Part shown: in pieces, positions 1,195 to 58,599 of the stretch
Layout: every line of letters starts with the position of its first letter
Numbering within the stretch: the stretch's first letter is position 1
From: Blasia pusilla
Lineage: Eukaryota
Reading direction: 5' to 3'
NCBI GenBank assembly: GCA_050084515.1
Contig: CM114271.1
Coordinates: 49,910,001-49,974,000 of the forward strand
Length of the DNA: 64,000 nt
Notes under the pieces: generated by a model
Databases searched by the model: none
What the model was told of the DNA's origin: nothing
The model's input: the letters and a program-made list of their open reading frames with translations, nothing else
Program-made: the position numbers and the translations under genes

Positions 1195-1733
1195 ATAACT
1201 TTCCAGCTCACAAAACCACTCTAGAGTTGCTCAAAGTTAGAATGCCCCTCAAGGCCTCTTCTCTTCTTTTATACACTTAGAGATAGGTACAATGAAGACA
1301 AATTAGCTCTACCTATCCTTATGCCACGTATTTTATTCTCATACCATAAGAGGATCTTCTTTGGACTCTAATGTCCCTACCTCATCGAAAGGGCCAGGGC
1401 ATTGTCAGACCAAAAAAGAGAGGATTTGAGCGTTATTTAAGAAATCATGTGAAAAACATGATCGCCGAAAGTTCAAGGATTTATGCGTTCAGTCAATCTA
1501 CGCAGAGCGTTTCTTCCAATGCATCGATAGTTCTTTGGCGCGCCAGAGTTAAGCCTCCGGACCTCAAGAGCTTGCTCCAACCTCATCCTTATCTTACTTT
1601 TCACCAACCTATGGCCCCACTTTCACCTTTATCTCATGTTGGTTGTCTTTACTCTTTTTTCTTGCTTCTTTCATACTTATGCGCTACATGTCATAGGCTC
1701 TAATTTAAGTTTGACTAACAAATCATGGTTACA
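1195..1733 (-). mobile_element. 3' LTR of a chromovirus-type Ty3/Gypsy element
   Basis: The minus strand reads PPT TTGGGGGGAGGTT (about 1734-1746), then TGTAACC at 1733. 1195-1385 is clearly homologous to 62874-63065. Confidence 0.65.
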
Positions 1734-2457
1734 AACCTCCCCCCAATTAAGACACAACGTCCTCATTGTGAGAACTTTCAAACTCTTGCACTATTAATGG
1801 TGCGTTGGCCAAGTTGGTTGAGGGTTGCCATGTGGCCTCAGATATTCGATATCTTCTCCATAAGACCAAGTATTCAACTCGTTAGTGATAAGCTCCTTGA
1901 GTGCGTTTCTTCAAGATATGTTTCACTTCAAATTCTTCGTGATCTCCTACTATTTGAGGAAGTACATGGTGGGGGGAAAATATTGTCCTCAAACCTTTTA
2001 GGGCGTGAGATAAACGATCAAAGAAGAGAGACGTGAAACACAAGATAGATTTTCATATGCATCAATAGGTCTAGCTTATTTTGTAGGATAGTGAAAGGCC
2101 GAATATAGCGAGGATTAAGCTTACGAGCTCCTTCTAATGATAAATTGGTTGCTGCTAACCAAACCTTATTCCCTTTAAGAAATTTGACATCTTGATAATG
2201 AACATCTATGGTTATTTTTGTCAATTTTGGGCAATAGCCAACTTCTCCTTAGCAAGTGTAACCCCTTTCAAAATATGGTCCTCAAACTCATTAATTGCTA
2301 CTACCTTTGTAGATTCTCTTGGGAGTTTCTCTATTCGAGTGAGACTAGAAGGAATTAAGGGATGCTCGCCATGCATTAAAAAAAAATGGTGTTGCTTAAT
2401 GGAAGAGTTCATGAAGTTATTGTATAAGAACTCTACTAAAGGTAACAATGAGTTCTA
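1734..2457 (-). mobile_element. Decayed Ty3/Gypsy pol 3' end: integrase C-terminus plus chromodomain
   Basis: LPLVEFLYNN..., KLNPRYIRPF...VFHVSLL (GPY/F-type region), then EEFEVKHILKKR...EYLVLWRRYRISEATWQPSTNLANA (chromodomain) just before the PPT. Contains stops and frameshifts. Confidence 0.85.
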
Positions 2458-2498
2458 TGTCGTGTGTATACACATCGCTACACAATCCACATGGTTGG

Positions 2499-4558
2499 TG
2501 TGCGCCCCTTCATAAGTGGCTCCCATGTGTGTTAGATACTTTTAGGACTCTAGTTAGGTGAGTAGAAGGAGCTAGAACAACAATCTGCAATTTAAATGGG
2601 ATCATTGGTGCTATTTGGACCAAGATGGTGGCAGCTCACAAATCAGATTGGGATAGGAAATTAGCTTCAGCTGTCCATGCTTACAACACAGTTGAGAAGA
2701 GTACAACAAGGAAAAGTCCCTACTTCTTGGTGTATGCGTAGAACCCTCTCTCGGTAGTAGAGCTGGAGTTGAAGACTGATCATACTCTAGAAGGGCACTT
2801 CCAACCTGAAAGTGGCATAGATAGCAGGCTGGATATGATTGATGCCCTAGAGGAGGAGAGAAAGGCAGCATTGGAGAAGACCAAGGCAGTTCAGCAACAA
2901 AGGAAGATGAGGTTTGATAACCGAATAAAGCATGATCCAGTGAAGGATAGGGACCTGGTGCTGATGTATGATAGTCGACACCAAAAGTTTCCAAAAAAGC
3001 TGCACATTCGACTGCTTGGGCCTTAGCAAGGGAGTGTGGAGTGTGGAACAAAGCATCAAGGGAGTGATGAGAGCAGGTGGAGCTGAAGAGCATCCAAGGG
3101 AGTGATGAGAGCAGGTGGAGCTGAAGAGCATCCAAGGGAGTGATGAGAGCAGGTGGAGCTGAAGAGCATCCAAGGGAGTGATGAGAGCAGGTGGAGCTGA
3201 AGAGCATCCAAGGGAGTGATGAGATCAGGTGGAGCTAAAGAGCATCCAAGGGAAGCTCGAACCAGCTTGAGAAGAAGCAAGCATGGGAAGAATGTAAAGG
3301 TAGGTCTTACCTTCAAGCATGTCCAAGAGACAAGTCGAGCCTATGCCATCAATGCTGCTCAAGAGACTTTAGTTAGGACAGGTTCAGAAGTAGATGAGGT
3401 AGAAATTTCAGGCAGTAGATGCCTTGGAGTAGATGCTTAGGGGGAGGTAGATTTGTAGAAAGGTAGGAACCCAGAATGCCAGAGAAGCCCAAGTGGGAAG
3501 AGGGCTCTCAGCTTCACTTATAAATACTCAGTTGGGTTTGCTTGAAGGCGGGCATATACATGGTGTTGGCTAGTAGACACTCGATCTCTTGAGCCAAGCT
3601 AACCAGTAGAATTATGTGCTCCCAGATCTAGGTAGTATGTAGTGTGCTTGAAGGGGGCTGAGACTAAGAAGGTCTCCCATGTACTCGATGATTTTGTGAT
3701 ACACAAAAGGTAGCCCTATGAAATGAGTTCACTCCACTGCCCTGTATCTGAGTATGTGCAGGATTGAGTGATGAGTTGGGGGGCTTGATGAAGGGAGATT
3801 CTTGGAGCTGATTCAACTAATCATTCAAAAGTGTAGTGAGTGGACAAGAGGCTATACCAGTAGAGGGGAGGCAAGCTTGGGTTCCAAGATTGTGCTTCAC
3901 CAAGGTGTGCTTGGAAAGCTTGCTGTTCTGCCCACCTGAGCTTGGCCTTTGACACCAATCACTGATTACTTCCAGGGTGTGACAACCTAGACTTCCAGGT
4001 CTGGTAAGTGATAAGAGTTAGTGAGTGGAGAGAGAGAGAGGGTCATGCTTGAGCTCCCCTATAGGTAGAAGACCATGGGCTCAGCCTGTTAAGTCTCCTA
4101 CTACCTGAATAAGAAGGGAGAACAAAGGATCAGCAAGGTAAGAGGAGAAGAAGAAGGTGATTGCACTACCTGATCGGTTAGGAGTTGGGTGTACTTTAGA
4201 GGATGTCCTTGGTACATTCAACTAGTCCAAGGCAGCACATTGGAGGACCTTATGCTATCCTGGTCATTCTTGACTGTGATTTCTAAGTAGAGTGTGCTTG
4301 TTGGGTTCCACTGGCCACTCCACTCAAAGCACTCAAGAGAAAGAAAGGAGTTTTGGTTAGTAGGGTGAGGACATGATTGTGATACTGAAGTGGAGAGAGT
4401 TTCTCCAGCCTCTTAAGGTAAGGAGGTGGGGCTTAGAGCTGTTAAGGAGTAGATCTGATCTTTTGATCTGGCCCTAAGCTCTTACATCGGACCGAACTAG
4501 TGGAACTAGCAACATTTTCACCTGGGTTGTGTACTGCCATATATTACGTGGTGAGACA
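2499..4558. mobile_element. 2060-bp TG...CA element (solo-LTR-like) with 5-bp TSD
   Basis: Begins TGTGCG and ends GAGACA. Flanked by GTTGG at 2494-2498 and 4559-4563. The empty site can be reconstructed from the copy near 19240. Confidence 0.85.
3052..3253 (+). repeat. 38-bp tandem repeat, about 5 copies
   Basis: GGAGTGATGAGAGCAGGTGGAGCTGAAGAGCATCCAAG starts at 3061, 3099, 3137, 3175 and 3213. Confidence 0.95.
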
Positions 4559-5092
4559 GTTGGTCACATCTACATACCACACAATACGGATCTTCCCCAA
4601 CATACGGGTAGATCCACACATAAATAAAATACACTCTTGCGTATAGACCGAGACCCCACAAAAAATTCAAGAGTAGTAAAAATGACTCACCCGGCCTAAA
4701 AGTCCACTCATGAATCTATATCGGCATATCAAACCACATCCACTATGAGGAAATTTGGACGCTAGCACCCTAGCTCCTACACACACATACCCACAGACGT
4801 TTATGCAAGAGAGGCGCTCCTAAGGCTCAACATGAGAAAGACGGCTTGAGAAATTCATCTTCCTCACTCTCATATCCTTGGCAAGAGCCAAAAGACTCTT
4901 CCTCCAAAAATAGCCCTACTAACGGTAACATGCGTGCACAGGATACCGGGTAATCGTTGACTTGGTCAACGGGTCACCTCACGGACTAAAACCAAAATAG
5001 GGAAATCGTCAAAAAATGACAATCTCGACACAATAGACCTGTCGCCAACCTCATCTGACATCTCGGGACAAAATTACAACCGAACAACCCGC

Positions 5093-5705
5093 TGTCGTAC
5101 AATAAAATTACCCAGTGTGTAAACTCCTCTCTCATTAATTGTTAAAGAGAGTTTTATTAGTATGAAGTAAATTAGCTTAGGAAAAGGAAATTCCCATCTT
5201 TAAACCTCTTTATGGTGCCTCTTTTATGCGGGCCTAACTTTAGGAAAAGAGGTAATAAATAAAAGATTGGATTATAAAAGTAAAGTAGTGGGGTTGGAGC
5301 TTTAATGAAAGAAAAGAAAAAGTAGTCTTGGGTGGTGGTTAGGATAGTTGGGGTAGTTTGGAAGATATGAAATGAGTAAAGGAGGATATTTTGGAAGAGA
5401 TAAGAGATAATCTTCTTGTGTCAAAATGTGATTGGCGAAGCCTTGAAAGAAATCCATGTGGTACAAGATAAGATTAGCCCTATTTTGTACTCTTGTGGAT
5501 CCCTTGTGAGTATATAAGTAGGAGGGACCCTCAAGGGTTCATCACCTTCTACTTCATATCTTGAGTCTCTCGAGTCACTCTTGAGCGTATGGCTTTGGGA
5601 TTGCTTGCTTTTCCAATGAGAGTGGATTACCCCTCTTGGGAGTGTAACTTGACCTTGGTCTGTCCTTCGAGAGGTTTCTAGAGTGTGGTATGTGTGGATA
5701 TGACA
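5093..5705 (+). mobile_element. LTR of Gypsy family B
   Basis: TGTCGTAC...ATGACA. 5093-5165 and 5372-5423 match the reverse complement of the LTR at 9955-10141. It interrupts the RT of the neighbouring element. No matching TSD. Confidence 0.7.
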
Positions 5706-8340
5706 GACTGGATATATCATATGACCCAAGTACTCAATCTCGTTGTAGAAGAACGTGCACTTGCCTGGATGTAGCTTCAGCCCATGCAAGTGCAATCGTC
5801 AAAACACCTCCTCTAGATGTCGCTCATGCTTCTCAACCGTGGCGCTAAAGACTACGATATCATCAATATAACACCTAGAAAAATTGAGACCTGCCAAGAT
5901 CCTATCCATGACCCTTTGAAACTCAGTTGGGGCGTTCTTTAACCTGTCCTCCAATTTGATAGGCGGTTGATGGTATCCGACTCGAAGATCTAACAAATTG
6001 AAGACCTTTGCATGCCCAATAACATCAAACATCTCCTCAAGAGTGGGCATGGCACACCTATCGGACTTCATGTGCCAATTGATAGGTCTTTAATCTCCAC
6101 ACATCCGCCTATCTGTCCAGTTGCCATGCACATCGTTCTTGGCGGGCATGATAGTGGCAGATGCATACTCTCCATGCAACATTTCCACTAGTCTTGCGCC
6201 AACCAAGTCCTGGATCCTACTCTGAATCAGAGCCCTCTCCATGTCATTGTACCTATAGGGTCGTTGGAAGATCGGCGTGTCACTTGACAACTCATTGCAG
6301 ATCCATGGACCCTTTAGCGTATCGAAATCCTACATACTAAATGCAAGAAAACTCCTATAACTCCTAAGGAACTTGTGTATCCGGCGTCGCTCTCCTCGTG
6401 TAAACTTAGGGCCCATATATGGCTCCCAAGTCTCCATCGTGACTATAGTAGGACTCTCCGGCACGGGTGCCGGTGGTTGCTATGGTGTAACCCCGTCTCG
6501 GACAACAAAACTCGACTGCTCCCTTGCAACCAACTGCAAAATCAGATCTCCATTTGTAGTACCCAAAACCACGCTCAATGCTGTGGCTACCATCTACTGG
6601 CATACATGCAAAACATCCCAAGAAGTCCAACGATGTCTCTCCCAATCATCCTTGGTGTGTCGATCTCTTCGTGTCTCGCCCCTGGCCACTACCTCAACCG
6701 TTTCGGTAGGCATGGGGCTCACCAACGCAAGTGTGATCTGTCGCATCCTCAAATGACGTTGCTCAGCTACTCCTAAGCTGAAAATCCATATCAAGCAGTT
6801 TAGGTCTATCGCCCAACCCGAGACATGACGTCTTGATGCCTCCGATAGTGACGGTATTGCCGTCACTCCTATGGGGAATCCCAACACTCACTCTCGCTCA
6901 CCGGCGTGGGGCTCCACCAACCTCTGTACTTGGTCATTCCAAACCAAGCCAGGTGTGGCTTTCTTGAATGCATACAAAGCGGGAAAACTCACCAATGTGG
7001 GAAAGGCTACTCGTGGCATGCCAATCCTGTTGACCACAGTCAACGGCGGTCGATCATCGTGCCTCATTGCCTATGATCGACGGCCCAGATCCAATATAGT
7101 TTCCACCAACAAATCGGAGGGACGCTCCACTCTCGCATAAGCCCTCCGCAATACCTCATTTGGTACCAAGTTGGTCCACCAAAGACGCGGGCGGTATGGT
7201 CTAGAACCTACACTCGCTGCATCTTACAAAACTGCAAGGCCTATCCATACGCGCACGTGATGTGCACTTGTCACCACGCGGGACCTCGAATCGCCCAGAA
7301 TCGACGCATTCTTCAAAATGTATGTTGGAGAACGAGGCTAATGCTTATGTAAATGTCGCAAGATCTGCATCATCTCCCAAAACAACCTGGACCGAGTATC
7401 AGCTAACCCACTACCTCGTCCAACACTCGATTGGCCCTGACGCGACCAACCAGAAATGACCAAGTCTATGGTCCCTACCCGCTCCAAGTCCTGCGCCCCT
7501 AACAATGAAATGTCCCTCGGTAGGGAATGTTGGTAACCCTGAATAGCGGACGCAGAAAACTAGTCGGGAAAACAGAGGCGTAACTGCGCCACATGGTGAA
7601 GTGAAGCGTGCCTTGCAACATCATCAATCTCCACATACAAGTACTGTTGCACACACACTCTAGTGTGCAAAACAACAGCTAACCCAGTGCCGAACCCTCC
7701 AAAAGAGATCCAACACCCAAATACCCTCCTCTAGGATGCACCACATAATCGGGGTGGTGTCCAAAGGGGTCATAGCATCACTCATGCCTACCTAGGGTTC
7801 CTCTGACCAGTCACACTCTAGTGAAAACATCTTGCTCTATGCGGTTTGCACATGCTTAGTGGCTAAGCGTCCAAGCTCCTCATTCGAGCCCCAAAGCAAC
7901 ACCTCTCCTCCAAGGACTGATGCGGCTACCATAACACTCCTCTCCATAGAAATGTCAGAATTGGGAGTATCCTCTACATGGACATGTCCCTCAATCAAAT
8001 CACTATGCCAAGTGATGGCACTGCTAAATGTTGCTAAGGTCGCCATCTCTCTTGGCTGTCACTCATCACTGTACCTGTGAATCGAATGGGTAATGAGTCA
8101 AAGGCTCCCATCACCTGACTGCCATCCTGGTCTGTAGGACGCTCACTCCTCCTAGTAATCTAGGGAAAACCCCATCGGGTATAACACTACTCCACCAACC
8201 AAGACGTCGTAGGACTCTGCATCAGTCACTATCGCCTTCTCTTCCAACAAGTACTTCCAAGCCAAAAGAGCATGTATGTTCTTTCGAGAGACCACAAAAA
8301 CCAATAAGCGTGTCATATTTAGCCTCCCATCTATCACAAC
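5706..8340 (-). mobile_element. Decayed Ty3/Gypsy pol fragment: protease end, DNA methyltransferase, RT
   Basis: Protease C-terminus (IVTDAESYDVLVGG, 8152-8337). RT motifs PIFQRPYRY, RRMCGD, LDLRVGYHQ, LKNAPTEFQRVMD, YIDDIVVFS and EYLGH (5706-6300). Confidence 0.9.
6770..7730 (-). pseudogene. DNMT3-like C5-cytosine methyltransferase domain embedded in Gypsy pol (decayed)
   Basis: Manual translation gives C5-MTase motifs in order: I VLDLF/GGFGTGL, II YVEID, IV DLVISGWSRQG, V DTRSRLFWE, VI YILKNA, VIII DAASVGSRPYRPRLWWTN, IX ERE*VLGFPIGVT, X RRHVSGWAIDL. One frameshift and several stops. Confidence 0.88.
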
Positions 8341-8469
8341 AACAGTATCAAGTTAGAACATAAGCCCAATAGAAAACAATAAACATGACATATAAATGTG
8401 CAAAGTAATATAATTATTATGTTAGTGCATACCCATACATATATCAAGGCCAATTTTCTCCACAGATTC

Positions 8470-9950
8470 AAACACACCTTGGCCTTTCTTTTATCCTTGT
8501 TTCATCCTCAACAAACATTATAAGCAGATCTCCCTCGATTCAAAGTAGTTGTTTTGATGCAAATAGTACTCGGGAGACCTCTTGAAATATCTCTTTTCGT
8601 AGCCCAGCTGTAAAGGGTGGTAGTTTTGCTCTGTCACGTTTCAAGGTCTTCAGACCTGGCCCTCCCAAGTTTTCCTGAAAGCAGTGGGAAACTTGTCGGC
8701 CACCAAACTGGAACATGGCTTGGGAAAAGGCTTTGGTTCTCTTACTGTAACGATGACCATTGGCCACTCTCTGCAAATTCTTAGCCGTATCTTTCAAGAA
8801 ATCCCACAACCCCTCCGTACCACCAAATGCCCCATCCCTATGTCCATTTACTACGTTCCTAAGAAATAGTTTCAAATCTTTCCTATCTGCAACTACTCCT
8901 AACATGTCTTCTAGCTTCTTTTGCCTAATACTCAAGGCATAAATCCTTTGTGATTATTGTGCCAAAAGCCAACATTGTCTCCTAAATTGAATGCTCAATT
9001 TTTCCACATGCTCCCTCAACTCTGTCTTGGTCAAGTACTTCATGGCCATCCCTCTTTGAGTTATCCCGCCTCCTCTATGCACCAAAGCTTCTGCTTCCCT
9101 ATGCACCTGACCAAAAAAATCATCCTCCCGCTTAATGGAGTCACAATGACTACAAGTGAGGTTCTCAAACCCTCCCCTGTTACTTGACAATCTAGAGCAA
9201 AGCTTGTGCCTAAAACAACCTTGTATACATACAATTGACCTACTACTTAGGTTGAACACTTGCGCTGAAGTGGTAAGCTCACAATTCCAAATAGTTCCTC
9301 ATGTCTGATCATTTAGTATGGCCTTCACATCCATCAACTCTCCTCTCCTTTGGAAGTTTGACTCCTAGAAGCCCCAAAAAAGCAAACTTAGTCCAAAATC
9401 AAAGGAGTAGCAAACCCACCTTTTCCTGAACTGCTTCCTTCCTTGAAGGCATCAAGGTTAAAGAATTTGGTAATGGAATTTTGACTCCTAGAAGCCCCAA
9501 CAAAGCAAACTTAGTCCAAAATCAATGGAGGAAGCAAACCCACCTTTTCCTGAACTGCTTCCTTCCTTGAAGGCATCAGGGTTAAAGAATTTGGTAATGG
9601 AATTTTGAGACGGAAATAAGTCCCTAGGATCTGGTTTCTTTGGTCTTCCCTTCTTCCCAGACCTCAAGACAAGTTTGGCAGTGACCTCTCTAGTGTCAAG
9701 AGCATCCAAGTGATCACGACTAACCAAGTGTTGTCGTAGATTATGCTCCAAATTGGCCTTTCTTGGGCACATATCTATGTGCAACTTGCCACAGATTATA
9801 CATCGTACCTTGTAGAAGTATGACCTGTGTGCAAACTGCGTATCAGCAATAGATGGCGTCATAGAGAACACTATTGTCTCACCCCCAACCTCTACATTCA
9901 TTTTCTCAACTATTCCTAAACCTACGGTGATCTGATGTTCATGATCCCAT
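8470..9950 (-). pseudogene. P-element-like DNA transposase, N-terminal half (decayed)
   Basis: Zn-finger-like CIICG...HLVSRDH, then CSHC, then GHRYSKRTKAF...NLGGPGLKTLKR, then after a stop LLIMFVEDETRIKERPR. This resembles the GxRY/LPSxxTL region and first catalytic Asp of P-superfamily transposases. Confidence 0.55.
9358..9610. repeat. 123-bp tandem duplication
   Basis: TTGACTCCTAGAAGCCCCAA...GGTAATGGAATTTTGA at 9358 and 9481. Confidence 0.9.
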
Positions 9951-9954
9951 AGAA

Positions 9955-12900
9955 TAATGACACAAGTAGATTTCCTCTTATCTCTTCCAAAATATCTTCT
10001 TTTACCCACTTGATATTTTCCAAATTATCCCAACTAACGTAGCCACCAACCAACTAGGCTAATTTACATAATACTAATAAAACTCTATCTAACACTTAAT
10101 GAGGAAGGAGTTTACACACTGGCTGATTTTACTATACGACATTCACCCCCTCCAAACCTGCACATCCTTCGATATGTGCCAAAAATATCGAAACTTCTTG
10201 CTATTTTACTCAAAATTATTTTTGTTGCGCCTCTAGATACATTGAATCAAAATCAAGAAATCCCTCACGTCTACGGAAAATCTTGACCCTTTTTCTTGCA
10301 TTGGGAAGCTTGAGAATTATGTCATCTAGTTCACGTAGTGTGTAAGTGGCATTGTTAAAAGCAAAGACTACAACGTATGGACCAAACCAATGACGTGCAA
10401 ACTTCTTAATTGTACTTTGCTGGTTGTCGTGCACCAAGACCCAATCTCCTTCTCTTATAGGCTCCTTCCGAAGTTGATGTTTTTGTCAAAGCGCTCCTTA
10501 TTTTTCAACCTTGCTTCCTTCATTTTGACTAATGCTTCTGCAATATCTTCTTCCCGCCGCTCTAGTTGTTGCATTCGAAGTGCTAGGAGCTCTTCCCTAT
10601 CGAGCCCGTCTTCCCACGGCAAAACCATCCAAGTGGGTATATCTCCTTCTCCGGGCATTATCGGCTTTTGACCTGTCATCAACTCTATAGGCAAGAACCC
10701 TATAACGGTGTTGTGAGTGGTTCTATCAGCCCATAAAGCAAATGGAAGCAATCTAGGCCAATTAGCATAACGGTCTCCTCACGCCTTTACCGATGCTTGA
10801 ATGATTGGCGGATGTCCTCTTTCGCTCTTACCGTTTGCCTCCGAATTCATGGAGGTTGTTAATCTCAACTGGACTCCGTATCTCTTGAAGAACTCTCGTG
10901 CTTCTTCCGCATTCAGCTCACATGTATCTGCACGGATTCTTCCGATACTCCCATATCGAGCAACAATATCCTCTAGAATAAAACGACATATAGGCTCTAT
11001 TGTTTTAGCCCGTAAAGCCCTCCCTTCTACAAAGTTGGAGAACTCTTATTGTGCTACGACCAGGTAACACATTCCCCAACGATCTAGTGGCATAGCAACT
11101 AGATCTATAACCCATTGATGATGAATAGACAAAGGATGCGTGGGTTTAAGTCCATCTCTCACCTTGATATTTGATTGAAATTGACATTCAACATATGACC
11201 CAACATATCTCTCAACATCTGTATATAGACCTTTCCACCAATACCTCTCTTTTATCTTGGTGAAAGTTGCCCAAGTACCTGTGTGTCCTACCCATAAAGA
11301 ATTATGGAATTCTTTGAGCACTTGCATTTTTATCCCATTGTCATTCACCACCCTCAACGGCATTCCATCTTTCCTCTTTGGCCTTTTCCAAAGATACCCA
11401 TCTTGTAGTAGATAGCCATACGCCTTATGCCGAATCTCCTTAAAGAACTTGTTTTTCCATCCTCCGTCTCTTTGTAGAGTGCTTAAATAGCACCCAATTT
11501 CTTTTAACCTGCCCTCATACAAATTCTCTTTGAAGGCTAGAACATCCTCTATGCCACCTTGTTCTTGAGATAACACTCGCCACACATGTGCATCATCCTC
11601 ATCTATCTCAGTTGCATCCATATCTTCTTCTTGATTAAATCTAGCTTTAGACAACATATCAGCTACTAAGCTCTCTTTCCCAGCTATATGCTTCAATTGT
11701 GGATTCAAGGACCTAATGTAGGCTATCCAACGTAGCATGGCTAAATATGGAGTCATACAATTTGCAATCATACCTATCAGAGGTAGACAATCAACCTCAA
11801 GCAATACATAGGCTTCCATAAGATACTCCTTCTCAGCTTTCATTGCAGTTACAACTCCCCAAAGCTCCCTCTTTACCTAAGGGTACCTCCTCTGTCATTC
11901 CGTGAGTGTACAAGCTCCAAACCTTATCGCAAATCTTCTTCCTTCAGCGTCATGCTGCCCAACTGCCCACCCGATAGCAATAGGGCTAGTGTCCACTATA
12001 ATGATAATAGGTCTTCTACATTCATAGCTCATTTGTCGTAGAACCGGTGGCGACTTCAATGCCTCCTTCAATTGCATCATTGCTGCTCTTTGCTTCTTCT
12101 CCCAAGTGAACTTCTTCTTCTTTCTCAACAGCTCATACAAAGGATCACATATGTGGCCAAAATCAGGAATCCACAACTGATAAAACACATGAGCTCCTAA
12201 ATACCTTCTCACTTCAATGATATTTTTGCATTCTCGTATCCTCCCAATGACATCAACTTTTGCTGGATTTGGTTTCCGGCCAAATTCTCCACAAAGATGA
12301 CCCACTACCATAATTTGAGAGACCCCAATACTACACTTTTCTCTAGAAAGAGTAAGATTGACCTCTTCTAATCTTGTTAGCATCATATCCACATGACAAA
12401 TATGATCAGACACAAACTTTCTACACCATCTTTCACAACCCTCTCAACCCTATCTTCTATTGCATATCCCTTCATAGGAATATCATCTACAAAAGGAATG
12501 GTTTTCTCAAGAATGAACTCTCTCAAGATCTTATTCATTGCACTTTGCATATGAGTGACAGAATTTGTTGCTCCTTGAGGTAATGTGCACATTCTTACAA
12601 GCCCAAGTGGAGTGCGCATAGTGGTAATATCTCTACTCTCCATAGCTAATTGGAATTGATCATATCCCGAGTGCAAATCTTCTATCGAATAGATAGCACA
12701 CGCTGCAAAAGTTTCTACGACTTCATCTATTCTAGGCCCCGCTCCCATATTTCGACTCAAGTAAGGTCCCATAGATGGCTCTAAGATACCCATCTGCATC
12801 TTCTCCTTCAATAACTCAATCAGCTTGGGAATCATAGCTCGTGGTACTGGTATAGGTTTCAAATCCCAAGGCACATATGGAACTATGAAAATTACCATCG

Positions 12901-14430
12901 GTGTCATCACAATCGTGTCTACACAACCAATTTCTTGTGGAGTAAAAGAGAAGGCCTTACCATGTCTCCTTAACATCTCCCGAAAGCTTTTCCTTTCAAT
13001 TTCTGTGAGAAACTCACCCCCTCCAATTTGCACACGATCAAGCGTCTCTTCTGTGAACTTATGTCCTATCTTCCTGACATCCCGCATACTTGGCTCCATT
13101 GATGCACGTTCTACTTGTCTCCCATAACCCTCTGGTAGTTGAGTAGCCATTGGTTTCACGTTCCAGGCCACCGTCTTGTATTTTGTCTGCACTTGTGCCT
13201 CCATAGGATGTTTGTCAGACTCAAACTCGTGCCCATCCGCTTCCTTCTCCGTAGATTCATATTCATTTTCTCCTTCCATGAACCTTGATATTTCTTCATG
13301 TAACTCACGCGAGTGAATTGTAATCACACTTGTATCCAGAAAATTGGTACTCATCTGGATAAACACCTCTTCAAGACTATCTCCAAAACCCTCTTCTTCA
13401 TACATCCCACTAATGAACTCTTCATCTAATAGAACACCCTCACATTTTAACAATCCATCTTTTTTTCTTCATAAAACGTCTTTTCTTTTGATTCATTTCT
13501 TTCATCATTTGGAATCTACTAGACCACAAAGAAAAACATTGAAAAAACCCACACCTAAACATATATGATTCTTCCCCCTCTACTAGCGGAATACTCTTTC
13601 TTTTCTTTGTACCCCCATATTCCTGCTCTACAAGAGTGCTAACTAAAAATCCGAAAACTCTTTCTCTACCTTCATAGGACCTTCTCTCAACTTCTCTCTA
13701 TTCCTTTCATGACCTACTCTTACACTAAGGAATTGAATTGATCTCGTTCCATCCTGACTTTTGATACGTGCATAATGAGACCCATCATCCATGACTTTGG
13801 TCTCCATTCTAGATGTTGTGATGTAAGGTTGCCCAAGAATTACAGGATAAGCAACTCCATTCAGAAAAAAGAAAAATTTCTCAATTAACACATCTCCGAT
13901 ACAAGTTTTGACAGTTGGACAAACACCGTAGAGTTTGCATTTTTGGTTGTTAGCCGCACGTAGTACCCATCCATGCCTGGTATCAATTGGCCACATCCCT
14001 TTGTCGTATACACTTCACGACATGATGTTGATCTCCGAACCATGATCAACGAGAGCCAAAACTAACTCTTGGAGAGAGCCGAGTCGAAATCTAACCTCCG
14101 TCGTTGCACGCGCCCAATATGACCAAGAATAGTGTCCACCATTGTGCCTTTCTTCACCTTGATATGTCAAGGCTTCTCCTAGTCTCGCCTCTTCTCCTTG
14201 TAAGTCAAGCTTTTGTCCAAAAACTTGACAAAGATCTTCATCTTCTTCTTCTATGATGTCAGTATCCAATGCCCTCACCATCACCATATCTGCAGTCATC
14301 TGCCTTTTTCTTTTCATCACATCTATGATCAACTCATGAAAATCACGTTTGGCTTTGCCCAAGACTTCCCTAAAAAAAAACTCTATTTTTGCCTCCAAAA
14401 TCCTCCCCTCAAGAATCTCCTTTAAATTCT
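9955..14430 (-). mobile_element. Ty3/Gypsy family B: gag end, protease, RT, RNase H, integrase, PPT and truncated 3' LTR
   Basis: ALVDHGSEINIM (protease); DLHSGYDQ, LPQGATNS and FVDD (RT); VDTSPIAIG (RNase H); HNSLWVGHTG and WVIDLV (integrase); WFGPY. PPT at about 10142-10153; the LTR starts at 10141. Many stops and frameshifts. Confidence 0.93.
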
Positions 14431-16399
14431 TGCTTGGGCTTAGATAACTCCTACTATCATGGTTTTTGGAACTTCAAGAATTGCTTCAATTGTTCCTATG
14501 CTCCCTCTTAAGGCGGAAATGGTGCAACGAAGCAACAATCAAGTTGTACTAGGTAGTTTGCAAATGCAATAGTTGATGCAGCAACAACAATAATTGCAAG
14601 AATAACATACTGCGAGGCAAACTATACAATCTCAGATATGGGAGGGCTCTTTTGTAGGCTATTCTCAACAAACACATGAGCATCATCAACAGCTACAAGA
14701 GAAACAACAATTAACACAACTTCAGCAACATTTACAACAGTATTAGCAGCAGCACTTGATGCAACAACAACAAAAGCAAGTTGCAAGGCAAAGTATGCAA
14801 TCTCAGAAATGGGAGGGCTCTTTTGTAGGCTCTTCTCAACAAACACAACAACATCATCAACAGTTATAAAAACAACAATCATTAACACAATATTAGCAAC
14901 ACTTACAATAGCATTAGCAATAGGTAAAGATTTTACAACAAAAGCAACATTAATTACAGCAACAACAGCACAAGAAGCTATAATAGCAACAACAACAACT
15001 TTTACTTCGGCAGAAGTTCATGCAATAATAACAACAACAACTTTTACTTCAGCTGTAGGAATAGTAATTGTTGCAACAATAGTAGCAAAAGATTTTATGA
15101 CCAACGCAACATCAATTACAGGAGCAGATGATGCAACAATAGCAGGAGCTGTTACAATAGCAACAACAACAACTTTCACTTCAGCAACATGAACAGATGT
15201 TGCTGCAGCAGCAGCAACTTGTACAACCAAAAGCAGTATTAATTACAACAGTAGCTGATGGAACACTAAAACAACAAATGCAACAACAACAGGAGTAGCT
15301 ATAGCAGTAGCAAAAAAAACTTTTATTTCAGCAATATGAACAGTAGTTGTTGCAGTAGGAGCAACAACAACATCAACAGCAAAAGATGCAATTACAACAG
15401 ATATTTGATCAACAGTTTGGGCATGAGCTCTTTGATTAAACTAACACACACCAAGTAGTCATTAATTGAGTGTTGCGACTAGCTTCATCATATCTCGTTG
15501 TGGCAGTTTGATTCTATGAAATTAAATGATCACAATGAGAGTTGTCGAAAGCCAAGGAGAGCAGCGATGTCTCAATTTCTATCATGAGCACAACTAATGA
15601 ATCTCAAGCAAAGTGGACGCGGCTTGCAACACTCCTCCACTTGATTTACCACACCCGAAGTAGACAAAAAGGGCGGATGCAACTTAAGCACTTAACCTTC
15701 TTAAGCTTACCGCACCCTGAGAAGACGGCAATGGACCTCGCAGCTCAAGCAATCAAGCAGTTAGGCAGAAATGTACTCTCAACTTCTCCTTCCCATCTCG
15801 CTTCCCTCTCTCTTCGCCTTGTTGCACCTTCGTCTCCGCCTTGCTCTCTTCACCTTTGCATTATCCATCACACGTCTCTTACGCCCTAGATCGCCTGACC
15901 CTCGTACCAAGTACTGACCCCTCTCGCTCATACTCCCTTGCTCACACTCCATTGCTCATTTCCCCCCCAATCGGTAGCTAGACCCTTCTTTGGTCGTGCT
16001 CCATGAGCATGCCATGTCATATGCCACACAGGTTAATCAAATTTTGGAAGCCCTATTTTTCTCATTTTTTTTCATCTAAGTTCATGTGTACCTTATTTCT
16101 ACTTAGTTTATGACTTCACATGTTTAGTCATTTTTCATTCCTCACACAAGTGAATCATATAAATTTTTAGTATGACTACATAGAAGACCGACTAGTTACT
16201 AAGTCATTTCAAATATGACTATGCCATATCCTAAGATTTCTCTATGACTCAGTCATAATTTTATATGACTACAACTTAACTATTATATGGGGTGATAGGA
16301 CTGCTATCTGACTAGCAGACATTCTAGTCATATGTTTGAGTCATGAAGAACCTCAGTCATTCTAGTACTTGTAAAAAAAACCACTATTTTCTTCTAGTG
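14430..16399. mobile_element. CACTA (En/Spm) element fragment with one intact terminus and a CAA/GCA-rich low-complexity interior
   Basis: Terminus ...TTTTCTTCTAGTG at 16399 (CACTAGAAGAAAA on the minus strand). Dense subterminal AGTCAT/ATGACT motifs at 16100-16360. About 170-bp duplication at 14610/14780. The left boundary is inferred. Confidence 0.6.
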
Positions 16400-49658: not shown

Positions 49659-52570
49659 TGTCGTGCGAATACACATCGCTGCCAACATACATCGGCTGTC
49701 GTGCACACACATGTCTAAGATCCATCTAGCTATGAATCCTAACATCTCTACACATGAACAATTGGACAACCCCAATCGCTCCCCTAGCTAGTGGTTAGGT
49801 CCCTCTAACTCTAGATAGCCTATAAAAAAAGTCTAAATGCTATTCACCTTGTCGGTGCTAAGATTAGGAGGTCGGGGGCTATAACGCCCCATCGTTAGTC
49901 ACCCTCATGCAATCCATAATATCAAGAGTCATCTTGTATCTACTTATCACACCTGTGTACATCTGGGACAAAGCCAACGTCCCTGAGGAACCTAGTCAAG
50001 AGGCGGCGCCAAACACAACATATGCCATCCTCGAGAACTCCCATCACAAACTAGCATCGTGGCTACGCCTCTAGCAGATCCACACAACATGCATCTCAAG
50101 CCTACAGGAACAACTTCCAAGCAAAAACTTCCTCCCATCTACGTTCAAAAGATGACATGGCGCACAATCACCCACATGATCTTTCCAAATGGTACCATCA
50201 CGACCCTCTAAAACAAGGACTCTTGAAGGTAAAATCTCTCGCACTCGCAGAATAGTGCATCCCGCCGTCACGTCCAATGTCGTCGGCGTTGTATGTTGTA
50301 GGTAGACATAATCCCCAGGATGGAATCGCCGAATCTGTGGTCAATAGCCTCCTCCACGCGTAGTCGTGTGCCTCAGAGTATCGCGATGTTGAGCGATAGC
50401 GTGGATCTCAAATGCCATAGGAATGACTCTCCAAAAGAGCTCAGCCCGATGAGAACACGCTTGCACCCATACATGTGGATCGTTGAGGTCAAGTACCTCA
50501 ACCACATCTTGTCAAATTGACGACGGTAATTCTAGCTCTCTCCCATGGAGCAAGAAATACGATGAAAATGATGCCAAGGATGCCTGCCGACTGAAGCGGT
50601 AACCCATCCCCAACCACGGCAACGGTAGGTCCCAATCTCCTAAGTGTCCTCTCTGCAGTCCATACTTACGCAATCCTCTCTTCACCGTTTGCACAACTCT
50701 CTCTGCCTAACCATCTGCCTCCGGATGATCTCGAGAAGTCGTACGATGATCTATTAGTGCCTCATCACACAAGGCGTGAAAGTCACCCCTAAACTCAGTA
50801 TCGTGGTTTGTCAACACATTTGTTGGTTCCCCGAAATGACTAAGCACTCTATCAAGAAATGCATAAGCCGCTCCCTCACTCGACCTGTCCAACAACGATA
50901 CCAACTCTATCCACTTGGAGAAGTGCTCCACCATGACCAACACGTACTGACTATGGCATCCCGTCAATGGTAAAGGCCTTGCAAAGTCTAAACTCTAGCG
51001 ATACCCTAATCCCATGATCGTAAAGGATGTAAGTGTGGTGTCGGAGCATTGAATGATGCCCGCACCCTATCACATACAATGCATTTGGCTACAAATTTTT
51101 GAACATAAGTGTGCATACGACGCCACCAATACTGAATGTGAATCAAGCTATACGTACGCTTGACTCCAAAATGCCCAAACTCCTCGTGAGCATGTCTCAC
51201 GACTTGTGCTCGCTGGGAAGGATGCGGCACCATCCGCACTCGTCCATCCTCCCAAACTCAAAGCACATGTGTCCCCTCCCACATGAACCTCCTGACCCGC
51301 CGTAGGACTCGATCCTGCTTCTAGCACACATCGTGCTCGCTAAGACACCAGTGTGCGCGTACTCCAAGACCATCTCATCATCGTGAATGTCTAGAGTCCC
51401 TGTCGACTCCTCACTAGCATCTGGATCTGAGGACTCACCATCCAACCTCCCTACTGCTGACCTGACATAGCCAACAAACACAAATAGGCATATGCGTGCC
51501 AAACCGACACCATCTCCTCATCACTCTCACCATGCCACCGCGCTCCACTTGCATCGCTTTGGCTCGTGCATGGGTTACGACTCAACCCCTTCCGCATCCT
51601 GGTTCAGATATCCTGGGCGATGGACAACCTGAAAATCGTACTCATGCAACAGGAGTGACCATTTGGCAAGCTTCCGACATCTCGCATAATCCAAACCAGC
51701 CAAAATCCTATCCATAACTCGCTGAAAACCGGCAAGGGCGTTCTTCAACCCAAATGGTGAGAACCGCCACTGGTACAAACAATCTCTCCCGAAAGGATCT
51801 ATCCCCCAAAATGCTCTCTTTTCCCTGTCCTCCACTCAGATGGGCAACTGATGATAGCCAGCACCGAGATCCAAACAACTGAAGATCCTTGCATGCCCCA
51901 TCGCATCAAAGATCTCCTTTAGAGTAGCCATTGCATAGCGATTGACCTTTGTATGCCGATTGATAGGACCGTAATCCCCACACATCAGCCTATCGGTCTA
52001 TTGGCCATGCATGTCCTTCTTTGCCGGCATAACTGTGGCAGATGCATACTCTCCAAGCAATCTCTCCACTTGTCCAGCGTCAGCCAAGTCTCAACTCCTA
52101 CTCTGAATCAAGGCTCGCTCTATGTCGGAATACCTGTAGGGTTGTCTGAAGATAGGAGTATCACTATCCAACTCAATCCGAATACTTGGACCCTTCAACG
52201 TACCCAAGTCGTGCATACTATAAGCAAAACAATCTTTGAATCTCCACAAGAATTGCAACACTCGTCTCCTCTCCGCTTCTGTCAACCTAGGACTAATCAC
52301 CGGCTCCCAAGTTTCTCTCCCAACCACCACCCTCCTTTGGAAAAGAGGAGGGTGGTGGTTGCTAACTAGCAACCTCTGAAACAACAACATGAGCTCCCAA
52401 CTCAGACACCAACTCTCTAGGCACTCCACTATGTCCTACATCAGCGAAATGAACTCCCATCTCTGTGTGCTCTCATAACATGTCCCATGAAGTCCATGGA
52501 TGCCTCTCCATCACCATTGCGCCCTAGAAAAGAATCATCCTAACGAATGGGACCAATCAATCCCACTGAA
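49659..52570 (-). mobile_element. PHD-finger Ty3/Gypsy element: RT N-half, deleted RT/RNase H core, integrase, PHD, 3' LTR
   Basis: PIFRQPYRY, FGLKNA, HEEFGHFG...CIVC, VEHFSKW, HPEADG. PHD CMLC...CDGS..GWHMLCL...WLCPRC (49959-50093). LTR about 49659-49886. Confidence 0.92.
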
Positions 52571-57545: not shown

Positions 57546-58599
57546 GCTGCTTTTCAGAACTCCTGAATTGGAAGAGATCCACCGCTGAAGTTCCACACTG
57601 GCAGTTTCTCCCCTGCTGGCTGGGTCACACTTTCGCAACTGATGTTGTCAACGAATCAGAAATGCTCCACGAATCACTGCACCCACCCTCCCGTCTGAAC
57701 AGCCGGAGTACAAGACCGAACACTAATATTACCAGGAATCAGAAACACGATGTCAGAATTATCACGCAGTCGAGAGCTTCAGTGATTTGAGATCTTCTCA
57801 CCGCTCCCGAAGTAATCTTCGTCGCCTACATCTCACTCTCTCCGGATCAAGTCTCTCGCAGCTCAATCCCGTGTGCGCAGTTCCTTCTCCTCTATATTAT
57901 CCTGAGTTTCCCGGATAAGCACTGGCGCCTGCGGACCACCCTCTTTGCGTGCATCTTAAGGCTAATGCGAGTTGACAGAAGGAGATCGCACTCACCGAAC
58001 GCACGTCAGGGGGATCGATCGATTCACAACGCGCTTAAGCTCGATTAAGTACCCGGTCCATCCGAAGTACTAATCGGACGGTCCAAAAGCAAGATCTCAC
58101 GAAACTGACTCCGCAAATTTACGAAGATTCTCATTAGACCGGGTCCGAGACTCCCAAGCAGGCTAAGCTAGGCCAACGAAGTCAACGGCATCAAACTGCC
58201 CCTAACATCTATAGCTCGCAATAGGGGCAAAGTCCTCGGGAACCGGTAGATTGCCGGTTGTGAAATATCCGCAATCTACCGGTTCACAATCGGAAGTGGT
58301 TTCCAACCGGTTTTTAAAACTCCGATTTTAAACTAAATGGAAGTTCCTCGTATCATATATTCATTTTACTAAAAAATAAATCTCAAAAGAGGACAAAGAT
58401 AGTCAAAAAATTGGCTCCCTAAACACATGTTCAACAAGCAGCACGATTAATAACTTGAAATAAATCTGGTGAGAGCACGAATGTTGGTAAGATATGAATG
58501 GATTACGAAGCGAGCGACAGCCCACCACCTCTGCACGACGTATCAATGCCAAGGCTTGTGCCCGTTGTAAGATCACTGAGATGCATTGCCGAAAATAAG

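What the first reader, a model, noticed from the sequence alone, without database searches (positions are those of the whole stretch)
6770..7730. Ty3/Gypsy retrotransposon carrying a DNMT3-like DNA methyltransferase between protease and RT
Seen: translating the minus strand through stops yields a full C5-MTase motif series in order: LDLF/GGFG, YVEID, DLVISGW(SR)QG, DTRSRLFWE, YILKNA, DAASVGSRPYRPRLWWTN, ERE*VLGFP, RRHVSG. It is collinear with the protease (8152-8337) and RT (5706-6300), so it sits inside pol. Known: motifs VIII-X resemble the DNMT3 clade (DAxxxSAAHRARYFWGN, ERxFGFP), and DNMT-bearing Gypsy elements have been reported from charophyte algae. I do not know of this as a described feature of land-plant elements. 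Inference: the family may methylate its own cDNA or its insertion site. This copy is dead (the catalytic PC reads SR at 7445-7440; ENV reads KNA).
Basis: partly seen in the sequence, partly recalled or inferred. Interest (0 to 1): 0.9.

Follow-up and report, generated by a model that had tools for sequence, protein, structure and literature searches.

The report
Dead DNMT3-carrying Gypsy retrotransposon fragment
This stretch is a broken copy of a jumping gene that carries its own DNA-methylating enzyme, a kind published only for a green alga but also found here, intact, in liverworts and peat mosses.

Summary
One minus-strand frame (7730-6597), read with X at its stops, gives a complete, non-permuted C5-methyltransferase motif series. 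It matches intact proteins of Marchantia, Calypogeia and others at E down to 1.7e-123. It is collinear with protease and RT, as in uninterrupted relatives (P0195: zf-CCHC, protease, DNA_methylase, RVT_1, RNase H, integrase in one 2188-aa ORF).

A family profile and an AlphaFold model both point to DNMT3A/B/C, well ahead of DRM and bacterial enzymes.

The window copy is dead and cut at both ends (8238 to about 5705). It has PC>SR, ENV>KNA, five internal stops and a 1-nt insertion.

The domain is not a one-off insert. Raw DNA reads cover the DNMT part about as deeply as protease and RT, 50-100 times the flank. Stranded RNA reads are 92-98% from one strand.

Named relatives are liverworts and Sphagnum. 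The window's domain sits inside that clade.

The kind is published only for the alga Klebsormidium (de Mendoza 2018). I found no paper naming it in land plants. Enzyme activity is untested. I file it as a new member of a known kind.

The parts
8152..8238 (-). Last ~28 residues of the retropepsin (ESYDVLVGG..LYPMGF block). The copy is 5'-truncated here, so gag and the protease active site are absent.
   Evidence: tblastn with P0003, P0005 and P0007. 1707 DNA reads run on into unlike sequence at 8238, and depth falls from about 1490 to about 22.
7731..8151 (-). Protease-DNMT linker, poorly conserved, with indels relative to most family copies at 8064 and 8098.
   Evidence: 41-44% identity to relatives in tblastn. 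The linker is the least conserved part of ORF1 after the tail. Indels: 812 of 1265 and 888 of 975 reads.
6597..7730 (-). DNMT3-like C5 cytosine methyltransferase domain plus its conserved tail (ERHRWTSWD, 6641-6615). Motifs I to X are in canonical order. It is inactivated by PC>SR (7445-7440), ENV>KNA (within 7322-7305) and in-frame stops at 7562, 7340, 7226, 7073 and 6890.
7701..7701 (.). One extra base that splits motif I (LDLF | GGFG) between two frames.
   Evidence: tblastn frame change at 7703/7702. The base is absent in 495 of 853 DNA reads and in 5 of 6, 7 of 8 and 8 of 12 RNA reads.
5705..6434 (-). N-terminal two thirds of the reverse transcriptase, in the same frame as the DNMT. It has an internal deletion near 5944 and is 3'-truncated after YLGHMIYP. 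RNase H, integrase and PHD are missing from this copy.
   Evidence: 65.6% identity to P0007 residues 1151-1275. Pfam RVT_1 at E 6.2e-15. Loose ends: 5944 (1168 reads) and 5708 (585 reads).
49959..52520 (-). Second, 5'-truncated relative of the same lineage. It has the DNMT tail only (ERHPWTSWD, 52508-52476), RT (52315-51689), a mostly deleted RNase H, integrase H2C2 (51221-51057), rve (50988-50722) and a decayed PHD finger (50093-49959).
   Evidence: 74.2% DNA identity to copy 1 over 411 bases.
5093..5423 (.). Flanking unrelated high-copy repeat, present again inverted at 9958-10141. Not part of the element.
   Evidence: blastn 84-86% identity. Opposite-strand joints 5289/10053 appear in DNA and RNA reads, and the RNA strand bias is opposite to that of the element.

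Best explanation
What it is. Window 8238 to about 5705 (minus strand) is a decayed fragment, truncated at both ends, of a Ty3/Gypsy-type retrotransposon. Its polyprotein carries a DNMT3-type cytosine-C5 methyltransferase as an integral domain between protease and reverse transcriptase. The full order, seen in relatives, is gag(CCHC), protease, DNMT, RT, RNase H, integrase, with a PHD finger after the integrase in some members.

Where it occurs. The lineage is present in liverworts (Marchantia, Riccia, Calypogeia) and in Sphagnum. In this genome it is very abundant and transcribed. This particular copy cannot make an enzyme.

How it most likely works. These steps are inferred, not shown:
1. The DNMT is translated as part of the Gag-protease-DNMT(-Pol) polyprotein and released by the protease.
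2. It acts as a de novo cytosine methyltransferase on the element's own cDNA or on the new insertion and its surroundings.
3. The PHD finger on the integrase reads histone tails to choose insertion sites.

My odds: DNMT is an integral family feature, about 0.95. It is DNMT3-type, about 0.9. Intact family members are catalytically active, about 0.55. The target is the element's own DNA, about 0.35. The confidence given for this explanation (0.85) is for the identity and architecture, not for the inferred mechanism.
For: Architecture.
- tblastn places protease, DNMT and RT collinearly (8331-7702, 7703-6612, 6434-6060) against P0007, a Marchantia model that runs from protease through DNMT into RT.
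- P0195 is one uninterrupted 2188-aa ORF. Pfam finds zf-CCHC 530-547, Asp_protease 796-888, DNA_methylase 978-1226, RVT_1 1421-1575, RNase H 1638-1766, Integrase_H2C2 1895-1949 and rve 1967-2061.
- Of 323 stored proteins, 55 show protease before the DNMT, or RT/RNase H after it.

Not a one-off.
- In a DNA run, depth over 5696-8305 is about 1250-3550 per bin, against about 14-47 in the flank 8306-9871. The DNMT bins match the protease and RT bins.

DNMT3 type.
- Profile A1 against PDB gives DNMT3A 4.4e-15, DNMT3C 6.2e-14 and DNMT3B 5.8e-13. M.HaeIII scores 7.5e-7, NtDRM 5.9e-5 and M.HhaI 7.7e-5.
- In the AlphaFold model of P0002, 10-residue block means over about residues 300-640 are mostly 74-92, with dips to 52-55. 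The listed Foldseek matches (ranks 1-50 of 500) are all DNMT3A/B/C, with TM-score on the target 0.74-0.80 for catalytic-domain chains.
- Motifs are not permuted.

Constraint.
- The catalytic PC is kept in 112 of 131 relatives that cover it, and ENV in 123 of 161.
- The DNMT is more conserved than gag, linker and tail in all 10 pairs compared, and more than protease in 9 of 10. For P0003/P0005 the identities are DNMT 74%, protease 56%, gag 46%, linker 44%. The exception is P0003/P0002, where only 28 protease columns align.

Expression.
- In three RNA runs, 92-98% of depth over 5696-8305 has the first mate on +. The DNA run is symmetric and the adjacent repeat has the opposite bias.

PHD.
- Pfam finds PHD after the integrase in window copy 2 (E 3.8e-7), in Marchantia P0144 and in 4 of 4 type B relatives scanned.
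Against: - The window copy alone is below Pfam's cut-off (15.5 against 22 bits). It has no gag, no protease active site, no RNase H, no integrase and no LTR.
- No terminal repeats of the family could be defined from either copy. 'LTR retrotransposon' therefore rests on domain order only.
- No enzymatic activity is known for any streptophyte member. KnitGypsy-Dnmt3 gave no methylation in yeast, which its authors call inconclusive (PMC5890265, section 10).
- My trees have no canonical DNMT3, DRM or Klebsormidium sequences. 'DNMT3-type' rests on similarity ranking and fold, not on a rooted phylogeny.
- RNA reads were laid at 80% likeness or more, and most are under 90% alike. They show family transcription, not transcription of this copy or of intact copies.
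- 'Sense' assumes the usual dUTP library orientation.
- The table of letter differences was cut off at 6488, so I could not see whether most copies in this genome keep PC and ENV.
- The host is not identified, because names were coded.
- Two relatives carry bacterial MAG labels (P0061, P0095). I take this as mis-binning but did not test it.
Confidence: 0.85

Rival explanations
1. One-off event. A host DNMT3 gene or pseudogene fragment was captured by, or lies nested between, unrelated retrotransposon pieces in this single locus.
For: The locus is a patchwork of truncated repeats. The copy has no LTRs or gag.
Against: Read depth over the DNMT part equals that of the adjacent protease and RT, and is 50-100 times the flank. 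The same protease-DNMT-RT order occurs in Marchantia, Sphagnum and unnamed contigs, including one uninterrupted ORF. DNMT and RT share one frame here.
Confidence: 0.02
2. The domain is a true family feature but works as a non-catalytic module, or on a substrate other than DNA. It could be a structural or DNA-binding pseudo-enzyme, or an RNA methyltransferase.
For: KnitGypsy-Dnmt3 showed no activity in yeast. 11 of 131 relatives read EC instead of PC.
Against: PC is kept in 112 of 131 relatives and ENV in 123 of 161. The SAM-binding motif I and motifs VIII-X are also kept. The DNMT is the best conserved part of ORF1. SymbioDIRS-Dnmt3 domains do methylate CG in yeast.
Confidence: 0.15
3. Nothing new in kind. 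The bryophyte elements are simply the land-plant branch of the published KnitGypsy-Dnmt3 family, inherited vertically from a streptophyte ancestor.
For: Both are Gypsy-type elements of streptophytes with a non-rearranged DNMT3-like domain inside Pol. Later papers already speak of 'streptophytes (Gypsy-DNMT3)'. At least 464 cluster representatives match the domain at E<=1e-30, so the superfamily is wide.
Against: No row named Klebsormidium appeared among the 7, 60 and 120 listed hits. The domain order and repeat structure of KnitGypsy-Dnmt3 are given only in a figure I could not see. The DNMT sits at two different places in the superfamily, so the domain has moved or been captured more than once.
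Confidence: 0.5

Closest known systems
KnitGypsy-Dnmt3 of Klebsormidium nitens (de Mendoza et al. 2018, PMC5890265; I read the abstract, sections 9 and 10, and found passages)
   Same: A Gypsy-type retrotransposon of a streptophyte with an intronless, non-rearranged DNMT3-like domain inside the Pol polyprotein. Key catalytic residues are conserved and the domain is under purifying selection. Activity is unproven.
   Different: The order protease-DNMT-RT and the integrase-PHD module are shown here. I could not compare them with the Klebsormidium figure, nor test sequence relatedness. The paper reports DIRS-like repeats, whereas the terminal repeats here are unknown.
Mammalian DNMT3A/3B/3C catalytic domains (PDB 6w89, 8te4, 6u8p, 8tci)
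   Same: They are the best sequence-profile and fold matches. Motifs I-X are in the same order, and VIII-IX are alike (DAxxVGSRAHRxRLWWTN against DAKEVSAAHRARYFWGN; ERERAMGF against EMERVFGFP).
   Different: About 22-24% identity. Pfam finds no PWWP or ADD reader domains. The domain is embedded in a retroelement polyprotein.
SymbioDIRS-Dnmt3 of Symbiodinium (same paper)
   Same: A retroelement-borne DNMT3-type domain. It was shown to methylate CG de novo in yeast, which is the precedent for activity.
   Different: It is a DIRS element with a tyrosine recombinase, in dinoflagellates, and the authors regard it as an independent acquisition.
Chromoviruses (Ty3/Gypsy with an integrase C-terminal chromodomain)
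   Same: A chromatin-reader domain is fused to the integrase C-terminus, presumably for target choice.
   Different: That chromoviruses use chromodomains is taken from the introduction of the 2026 preprint and from general knowledge.
DAM-LTR / EpiLTR elements (bioRxiv 10.64898/2026.05.21.726589; found passages only)
   Same: LTR retrotransposons that carry DNA methyltransferase domains and a chromatin reader.
   Different: Those carry a Dam-type adenine methyltransferase, and their DNMT is sister to DNMT4. The preprint states that DAM-LTRs are absent from Streptophyta.

Membership tests
C5 cytosine DNA methyltransferase (Pfam PF00145) | Match above Pfam's gathering score | tested here: not met
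   The window copy scores 15.5 bits against a 22-bit cut-off, E 0.012. Of its 7 first relatives, 6 pass at 34.9-51.3 bits. P0007, which lacks motifs IV-VI, does not. The window copy is therefore a decayed remnant of a member.
C5 cytosine DNA methyltransferase (Pfam PF00145) | Catalytic Pro-Cys (motif IV) and Glu-Asn-Val (motif VI) | tested here: not met
   The window reads SR (7445-7440) and KNA. Relatives keep PC in 112 of 131 and ENV in 123 of 161.
DNMT3 clade | Motifs I-X in canonical, non-permuted order (unlike DRM) | tested here: met
   The alignment with intact relatives shows I, IV, VI, VIII, IX, X in order. The profile matches NtDRM only at 5.9e-5.
DNMT3 clade | Closest solved relatives are DNMT3 enzymes, by sequence and by fold | tested here: met
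   The 29 best of 46 PDB sequences are DNMT3A/B/C, at 4.4e-15 to 2.5e-11. The listed Foldseek matches, ranks 1-50 of 500, are all DNMT3A/B/C.
DNMT3 clade | Placement inside DNMT3 in a rooted tree with DNMT1, DNMT5, DRM, DNMT4 and bacterial outgroups | not tested
   No canonical DNMT sequences could be obtained. All 150 listed rows score E<6.2e-64 and look like retroelement relatives.
DNMT3 clade | N-terminal PWWP and/or ADD reader domains of canonical DNMT3 | tested here: not met
   Pfam finds neither in 7 + 5 relatives. A PHD finger sits at the far C-terminus of the polyprotein instead.
Ty3/Gypsy LTR retrotransposon | Pol order protease, RT, RNase H, integrase, with a gag CCHC knuckle | tested here: met
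   P0195 shows it. In the window, copy 1 has protease remnant, DNMT, RT, and copy 2 has RT, integrase.
Ty3/Gypsy LTR retrotransposon | Long terminal repeats, PBS/PPT, target-site duplication | tested here: inconclusive
   No direct-repeat pair flanks either copy, and both are truncated. The published algal relative has DIRS-like repeats.
KnitGypsy-Dnmt3 family | DNMT3-like domain within the Pol ORF of a Gypsy-type element in a streptophyte | tested here: met
   The window's host is inferred from the tree only.
KnitGypsy-Dnmt3 family | Sequence relatedness to the Klebsormidium elements, with the same domain order and repeats | not testable with these tools
   No hit was named Klebsormidium. The architecture is only in a figure and supplements, which were not available.

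The most novel reading that the evidence does not exclude
A DNMT3-bearing, PHD-tipped Gypsy lineage is alive across bryophytes, with thousands of copies and strand-specific transcripts in this genome and intact ORFs in Marchantia polymorpha. Its methyltransferase, the best conserved part of ORF1, would be an active de novo enzyme that marks the element's own DNA. At this copy number it would contribute measurably to the host methylome. The element would then write its own epigenetic state rather than merely suffer the host's. The genetically tractable Marchantia could show why.
Probability: 0.3. Interest if true: 0.8.

Novelty: new member of a known kind. Interest (0 to 1): 0.55.

Why it matters
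Why a transposon would carry the enzyme that usually silences transposons is an open question raised in 2018. The streptophyte example then available, from Klebsormidium, gave no activity in yeast and has few copies.

Three points follow from this work:
1. The same kind of element occurs in land plants, with apparently intact gag-protease-DNMT ORFs in the model liverwort Marchantia polymorpha. In at least one genome it has very many copies and is transcribed. That makes the question testable by ordinary genetics and methylome work.
2. There is an annotation risk. Several of these retroelement ORFs are named 'DNA (cytosine-5)-methyltransferase' by UniRef. That can inflate counts of host DNMT genes in bryophytes.
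3. In the wider superfamily the DNMT occupies two different positions in Pol. This split maps to a single branch of the DNMT tree, a clean case of domain shuffling inside retroelements.

Tried and rejected
- Whole-genome search: no genome is held for this window. I could not list intact copies, LTR pairs or insertion ages, and used raw reads instead.
- Sequencing-run search: no RNA holder was listed by the index. Raw RNA runs of the same species label were laid instead.
- Letter differences: the table was cut at 6488, with 1503 rows not shown.
- Host identification failed.
  - Organism names are coded.
  - Rfam found nothing (0 matches).
  - The Atlas gave only 'Streptophyta' for the Marchantia DNMT cluster, and ZZ-finger clusters of mixed taxa for a host-like ORF.
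  - Scan notes for this genome were empty.
It was replaced by FastTree on 96 rows and IQ-TREE quick on 41 rows. P0059 was left out as a long branch.
- Canonical DNMT3, DRM and Klebsormidium sequences could not be obtained, so there is no rooted phylogeny.
- The inverted repeats 5093-5423 / 9958-10141 were considered as DIRS-like termini of the element and rejected. They belong to a different repeat with its own depth and the opposite RNA strand, and the element's homology ends inside them at 8238 and about 5705.
- CpG observed/expected is 0.70-0.83 in the fragment, against 0.66 for the whole window. There is no distinctive decay signal.
- A Dam-like second methyltransferase at the C-terminus of type B relatives was followed only weakly. 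Pfam MethyltransfD12 scored E 0.16 in 1 of 4 proteins. Crude motif patterns were both present in 5 of 38.
- One literature search was rejected for syntax and re-sent in other words (0 papers).
Full report
**1. The observation**

The minus-strand frame 7790..6594, read with X at stops, gives a 399-residue product, P0001, with 10 stops. Coordinates are:
- motif I, FGGFGTGL: 7703-7680
- YVEID: 7637-7623
- motif IV, SGWSRQG: 7454-7434
- motif VI, YILKNA: 7322-7305
- motif VIII, DAASVGSRPYRPRLWWTN: 7223-7170
- motif IX, ERE*VLGF: 6899-6876
- motif X, RRHVSGWAID: 6833-6804

By itself the decayed copy is only a weak database match. Pfam DNA_methylase scores 15.5 bits, E 0.012, under the 22-bit cut-off. 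All 19 PDB sequences matched at E<=1 are DNMT3A or DNMT3B, best E 0.004.

The decisive result is the search for relatives. Seven long proteins matched at E 1.7e-123 to 1.6e-92, with 47-58% identity over 67-97% of the query. The window holds one copy of the domain.

**2. Where the domain sits**

The Marchantia polymorpha relatives (for example P0003, Mp_4g09160, 1278 aa) read gag with CCHC knuckles, protease (DSGAQP), a linker, then the methyltransferase with intact AGWPCQG, YILENV, DAARVGSRAHRARLWWTN and ERERAMGF. P0007, P0012 and P0016 run on into RT and RNase H.

tblastn of these proteins on the window gives a collinear series on the minus strand:
- protease and linker: 8331-7702
- DNMT: 7703-6612
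- RT: 6434-6060, at 65.6% identity to P0007

DNMT and RT lie in the same frame.

P0195, from an unnamed contig, is one uninterrupted 2188-aa ORF. Pfam finds zf-CCHC, Asp_protease, DNA_methylase, RVT_1, RNase H, Integrase_H2C2 and rve, in that order.

**3. State of this copy**

The copy is dead and is only a fragment.
- The catalytic Pro-Cys reads Ser-Arg (7445-7440), and Glu-Asn-Val reads Lys-Asn-Ala.
- Five stops lie inside the domain.
- An extra base at 7701 splits motif I. 495 of 853 DNA reads lack that base.
- Family homology stops at 8238, where 1707 reads continue into unlike sequence and depth falls about 70-fold.
- Homology also stops near 5705, after YLGHMIYP of the RT. There is an internal RT deletion near 5944.
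- Gag, the protease active site, RNase H, integrase and any terminal repeats are absent.

A second relative lies at 52520-49959 on the same strand. It is cut just inside the DNMT tail (ERHPWTSWD) and continues with RT, integrase H2C2, rve and a decayed PHD finger. It is 74.2% identical to copy 1 over 411 bases of RT. The two copies together sketch the family's order in this genome.

**4. Family feature or one-off**

No genome is held for the window, so I laid public reads of the same species label on 5000-10200 at 80% likeness or more.

In the DNA run, about 1 in 100 of the run was read, and 50,121 of 12,434,590 records were laid. Summing both strand columns, table 2, depth per bin was:
- RT: about 1850-3550
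- DNMT: about 1250-2240, mean about 1770
- linker and protease: about 1490-2000
- flank 8306-9871: about 14-47

The DNMT part is thus as abundant as its neighbours.

By my arithmetic from that table, about 0.11% of all letters read lie on the DNMT part. That is roughly 900 domain-length equivalents per gigabase of genome. The genome size is unknown.

Most reads are old relatives: 37,518 of 50,121 are under 90% alike.

In three RNA runs, 2217, 2480 and 2581 records were laid. Of the depth over 5696-8305, 92.6%, 97.9% and 92.2% has the first mate on + (my sums from table 2). In the DNA run the two directions are equal, and the adjacent repeat at 5174-5695 shows the opposite bias. With the usual library orientation this means sense transcripts of the family. 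It does not show that this copy, or intact copies, are expressed.

**5. What kind of methyltransferase**

A profile of 19 gag-protease-DNMT or protease-DNMT proteins (A1) was searched against PDB sequences:

| Target | E-value |
|---|---|
| DNMT3A | 4.4e-15 |
| DNMT3C | 6.2e-14 |
| DNMT3B | 5.8e-13 |
| M.HaeIII | 7.5e-7 |
| tobacco DRM (4onj) | 5.9e-5 |
| M.HhaI | 7.7e-5 |

No chain named DNMT1 or chromomethylase appeared among the 46 sequences at E<=0.01.

An AlphaFold model of the Calypogeia protein P0002 has 10-residue block means over about residues 300-640 that are mostly 74-92, with dips to 52-55. The rest of the model is poor. The listed Foldseek matches, ranks 1-50 of 500, are all DNMT3A/B/C, with E about 1e-15 and TM-score on the target 0.74-0.80 for catalytic-domain chains.

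The motif order is not permuted as it is in DRM. Pfam finds no PWWP or ADD in the relatives.

This is a similarity ranking, not a rooted tree. I could not bring canonical DNMT3, DRM or Klebsormidium sequences into the session.

**6. Constraint**

Among 180 relatives, PC is kept in 112 of the 131 that cover the site. EC occurs in 11, and other pairs in 8. ENV is kept in 123 of 161.

In ten pairwise comparisons along ORF1, the DNMT is more conserved than gag, linker and tail in all ten, and more than protease in nine. The exception is P0003/P0002, where only 28 protease columns align.

| Pair | DNMT | Protease | Gag | Linker |
|---|---|---|---|---|
| P0003/P0005 | 74% | 56% | 46% | 44% |
| P0003/P0022 | 51% | 46% | 25% | 29% |

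I had no DNA of relatives, so there is no dN/dS.

**7. Range**

Named relatives are Marchantia polymorpha (many gene models), M. paleacea, Riccia sorocarpa, Calypogeia fissa, and Sphagnum fallax, S. troendelagicum and S. jensenii. Two carry bacterial MAG labels (P0061, P0095), which I take for mis-binned contigs. The rest are unnamed metagenome or run assemblies. No row is named Klebsormidium.

Short relatives number 608 at E<=0.001 among 8000 scored.

A domain profile (A2) was run against 1.84 billion cluster representatives:
- 464 at E<=1e-30
- 2195 at E<=1e-10
- 9821 at E<=0.001; this last set certainly includes ordinary methyltransferases

BLAST-defined architectures of the 323 stored proteins fall into two orders:
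- Type A, protease-DNMT(-RT-RNase H-integrase): 55 proteins.
- Type B, RT-RNase H-DNMT-integrase-PHD: 83 proteins.
- A further 27 show DNMT-integrase only, and 158 show DNMT only.

Pfam confirms type B in 4 of 4 proteins scanned.

On an IQ-TREE quick tree of 41 domains, the A/B split is a single branch (SH-aLRT 98). The window's domain lies in a 13-row clade (100) with Marchantia, Riccia, Calypogeia, Sphagnum, P0005 and P0014. FastTree on 96 rows agrees: a 20-row clade at 99 and a type B clade at 99. P0059 was left out as a long branch.

The host of the window is therefore most likely a bryophyte or another early land plant. It was not identified.

**8. Mechanism**

Shown:
- an integral, conserved DNMT3-type domain in the polyprotein
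- abundance in this genome
- strand-specific family transcripts
- a PHD finger after the integrase in members of both orders

Inferred:
- release of the domain by the protease
- de novo cytosine methylation of the element's own cDNA or new insertion
- histone reading by the PHD finger for target choice

The precedent is that SymbioDIRS-Dnmt3 domains methylate CG de novo in yeast. The Klebsormidium Gypsy domain gave nothing in that assay, as did human DNMT3B, and the authors call this inconclusive (PMC5890265, section 10).

**9. Literature**

De Mendoza et al. 2018 describe KnitGypsy-Dnmt3 in Klebsormidium nitens only. A term search of its text found 0 occurrences of Marchantia or liverwort. 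I read the abstract, sections 9 and 10, and found passages.

Sarre et al. 2025 (PMC12344493, found passages) and a 2026 preprint on Dam-carrying retrotransposons (10.64898/2026.05.21.726589, found passages) refer to DNMT3 in retrotransposons of 'streptophytes'. In those passages they name no land plant.

Searches for the Marchantia gene identifiers returned no paper. The searches returned no paper naming such elements in land plants. Passages of PMC6453930, PMC5784723, PMC8616336, PMC10952607 and PMC11982613 do not mention them.

Supplements were closed, and the DNMT trees there may include bryophyte rows. The sequences themselves are public gene models. UniRef names some of them 'DNA (cytosine-5)-methyltransferase'.

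**10. Verdict**

The locus itself is a dead fragment.

What is worth keeping is the family: a DNMT3-carrying Gypsy lineage in land plants, abundant and transcribed here, and apparently intact in a model liverwort.

I rate it a new member of a known kind. Interest is moderate because the kind was published in 2018. It would be higher if the enzyme proves active.

Noticed in passing
Relatives P0032, P0039, P0041, P0052 and 79 others (not in the window): A second domain order exists in the wider superfamily: RT, RNase H, DNMT, integrase, PHD, against protease, DNMT, RT here. On the DNMT tree the two orders are separated by one branch (SH-aLRT 98). The domain has therefore moved within pol or been captured twice from close sources.
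   Followed up: partly
P0039 residues 1715-1755, and the C-termini of P0041, P0059, P0212 and P0229: After the PHD finger, some type B proteins have a further ~300 residues with DPWxGxG and (S/A)PW(F/L)-like motifs. One has a weak Pfam hit to D12-class N6-adenine methyltransferase (E 0.16). Both crude motifs appear in order in only 5 of 38 proteins, so this is a possible DNMT3-plus-Dam element with thin evidence.
   Followed up: partly
window 55875-57647 (-) and 22536-24410 (-): Two paralogous, apparently intronless host-like ORFs with four ZZ-type zinc fingers followed by a long Q/P/G-rich tail. The first is open for 590 codons. The second is broken over three frames.
   Followed up: partly
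window 7052-7483: RNA reads join 7052 to 7483 with 12 other letters between: 1, 4 and 8 reads in the three RNA runs, none in the DNA sample read. This looks like a transcribed deletion derivative lacking motifs IV-VIII rather than splicing, since the ends are AT..GC.
   Followed up: no
window 5093-5423 and 9958-10141: Inverted copies (84-86% identical) of another high-copy repeat bracket the fragment and its low-copy flank. Reads join 5289 to 10053 on opposite strands. Its RNA comes from the strand opposite to that of the DNMT element.
   Followed up: partly
window 8540-10024 (-): Low-copy sequence (depth about 14-47) with three consecutive ORFs in one frame, including a C2H2-like CxxC...HxxxxH motif. 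No Pfam match at E<=0.1. It contains a 123-124-bp direct duplication at 9351-9608.
   Followed up: no
window about 10200-14500 (-) and 17106-17624 (+): An unrelated Ty3/Gypsy element with long open RT, RNase H and integrase frames and no DNMT. A related protease fragment lies on the other strand.
   Followed up: no
window 3019-3291: A tandem array of a 38-bp unit, with copies up to 100% identical.
   Followed up: no
P0061 and P0095 (database labels): Two retroelement DNMT/integrase proteins carry bacterial MAG names (Spirochaetia; Candidatus Obscuribacterales). They are probably eukaryotic contigs mis-binned into bacterial bins.
   Followed up: no
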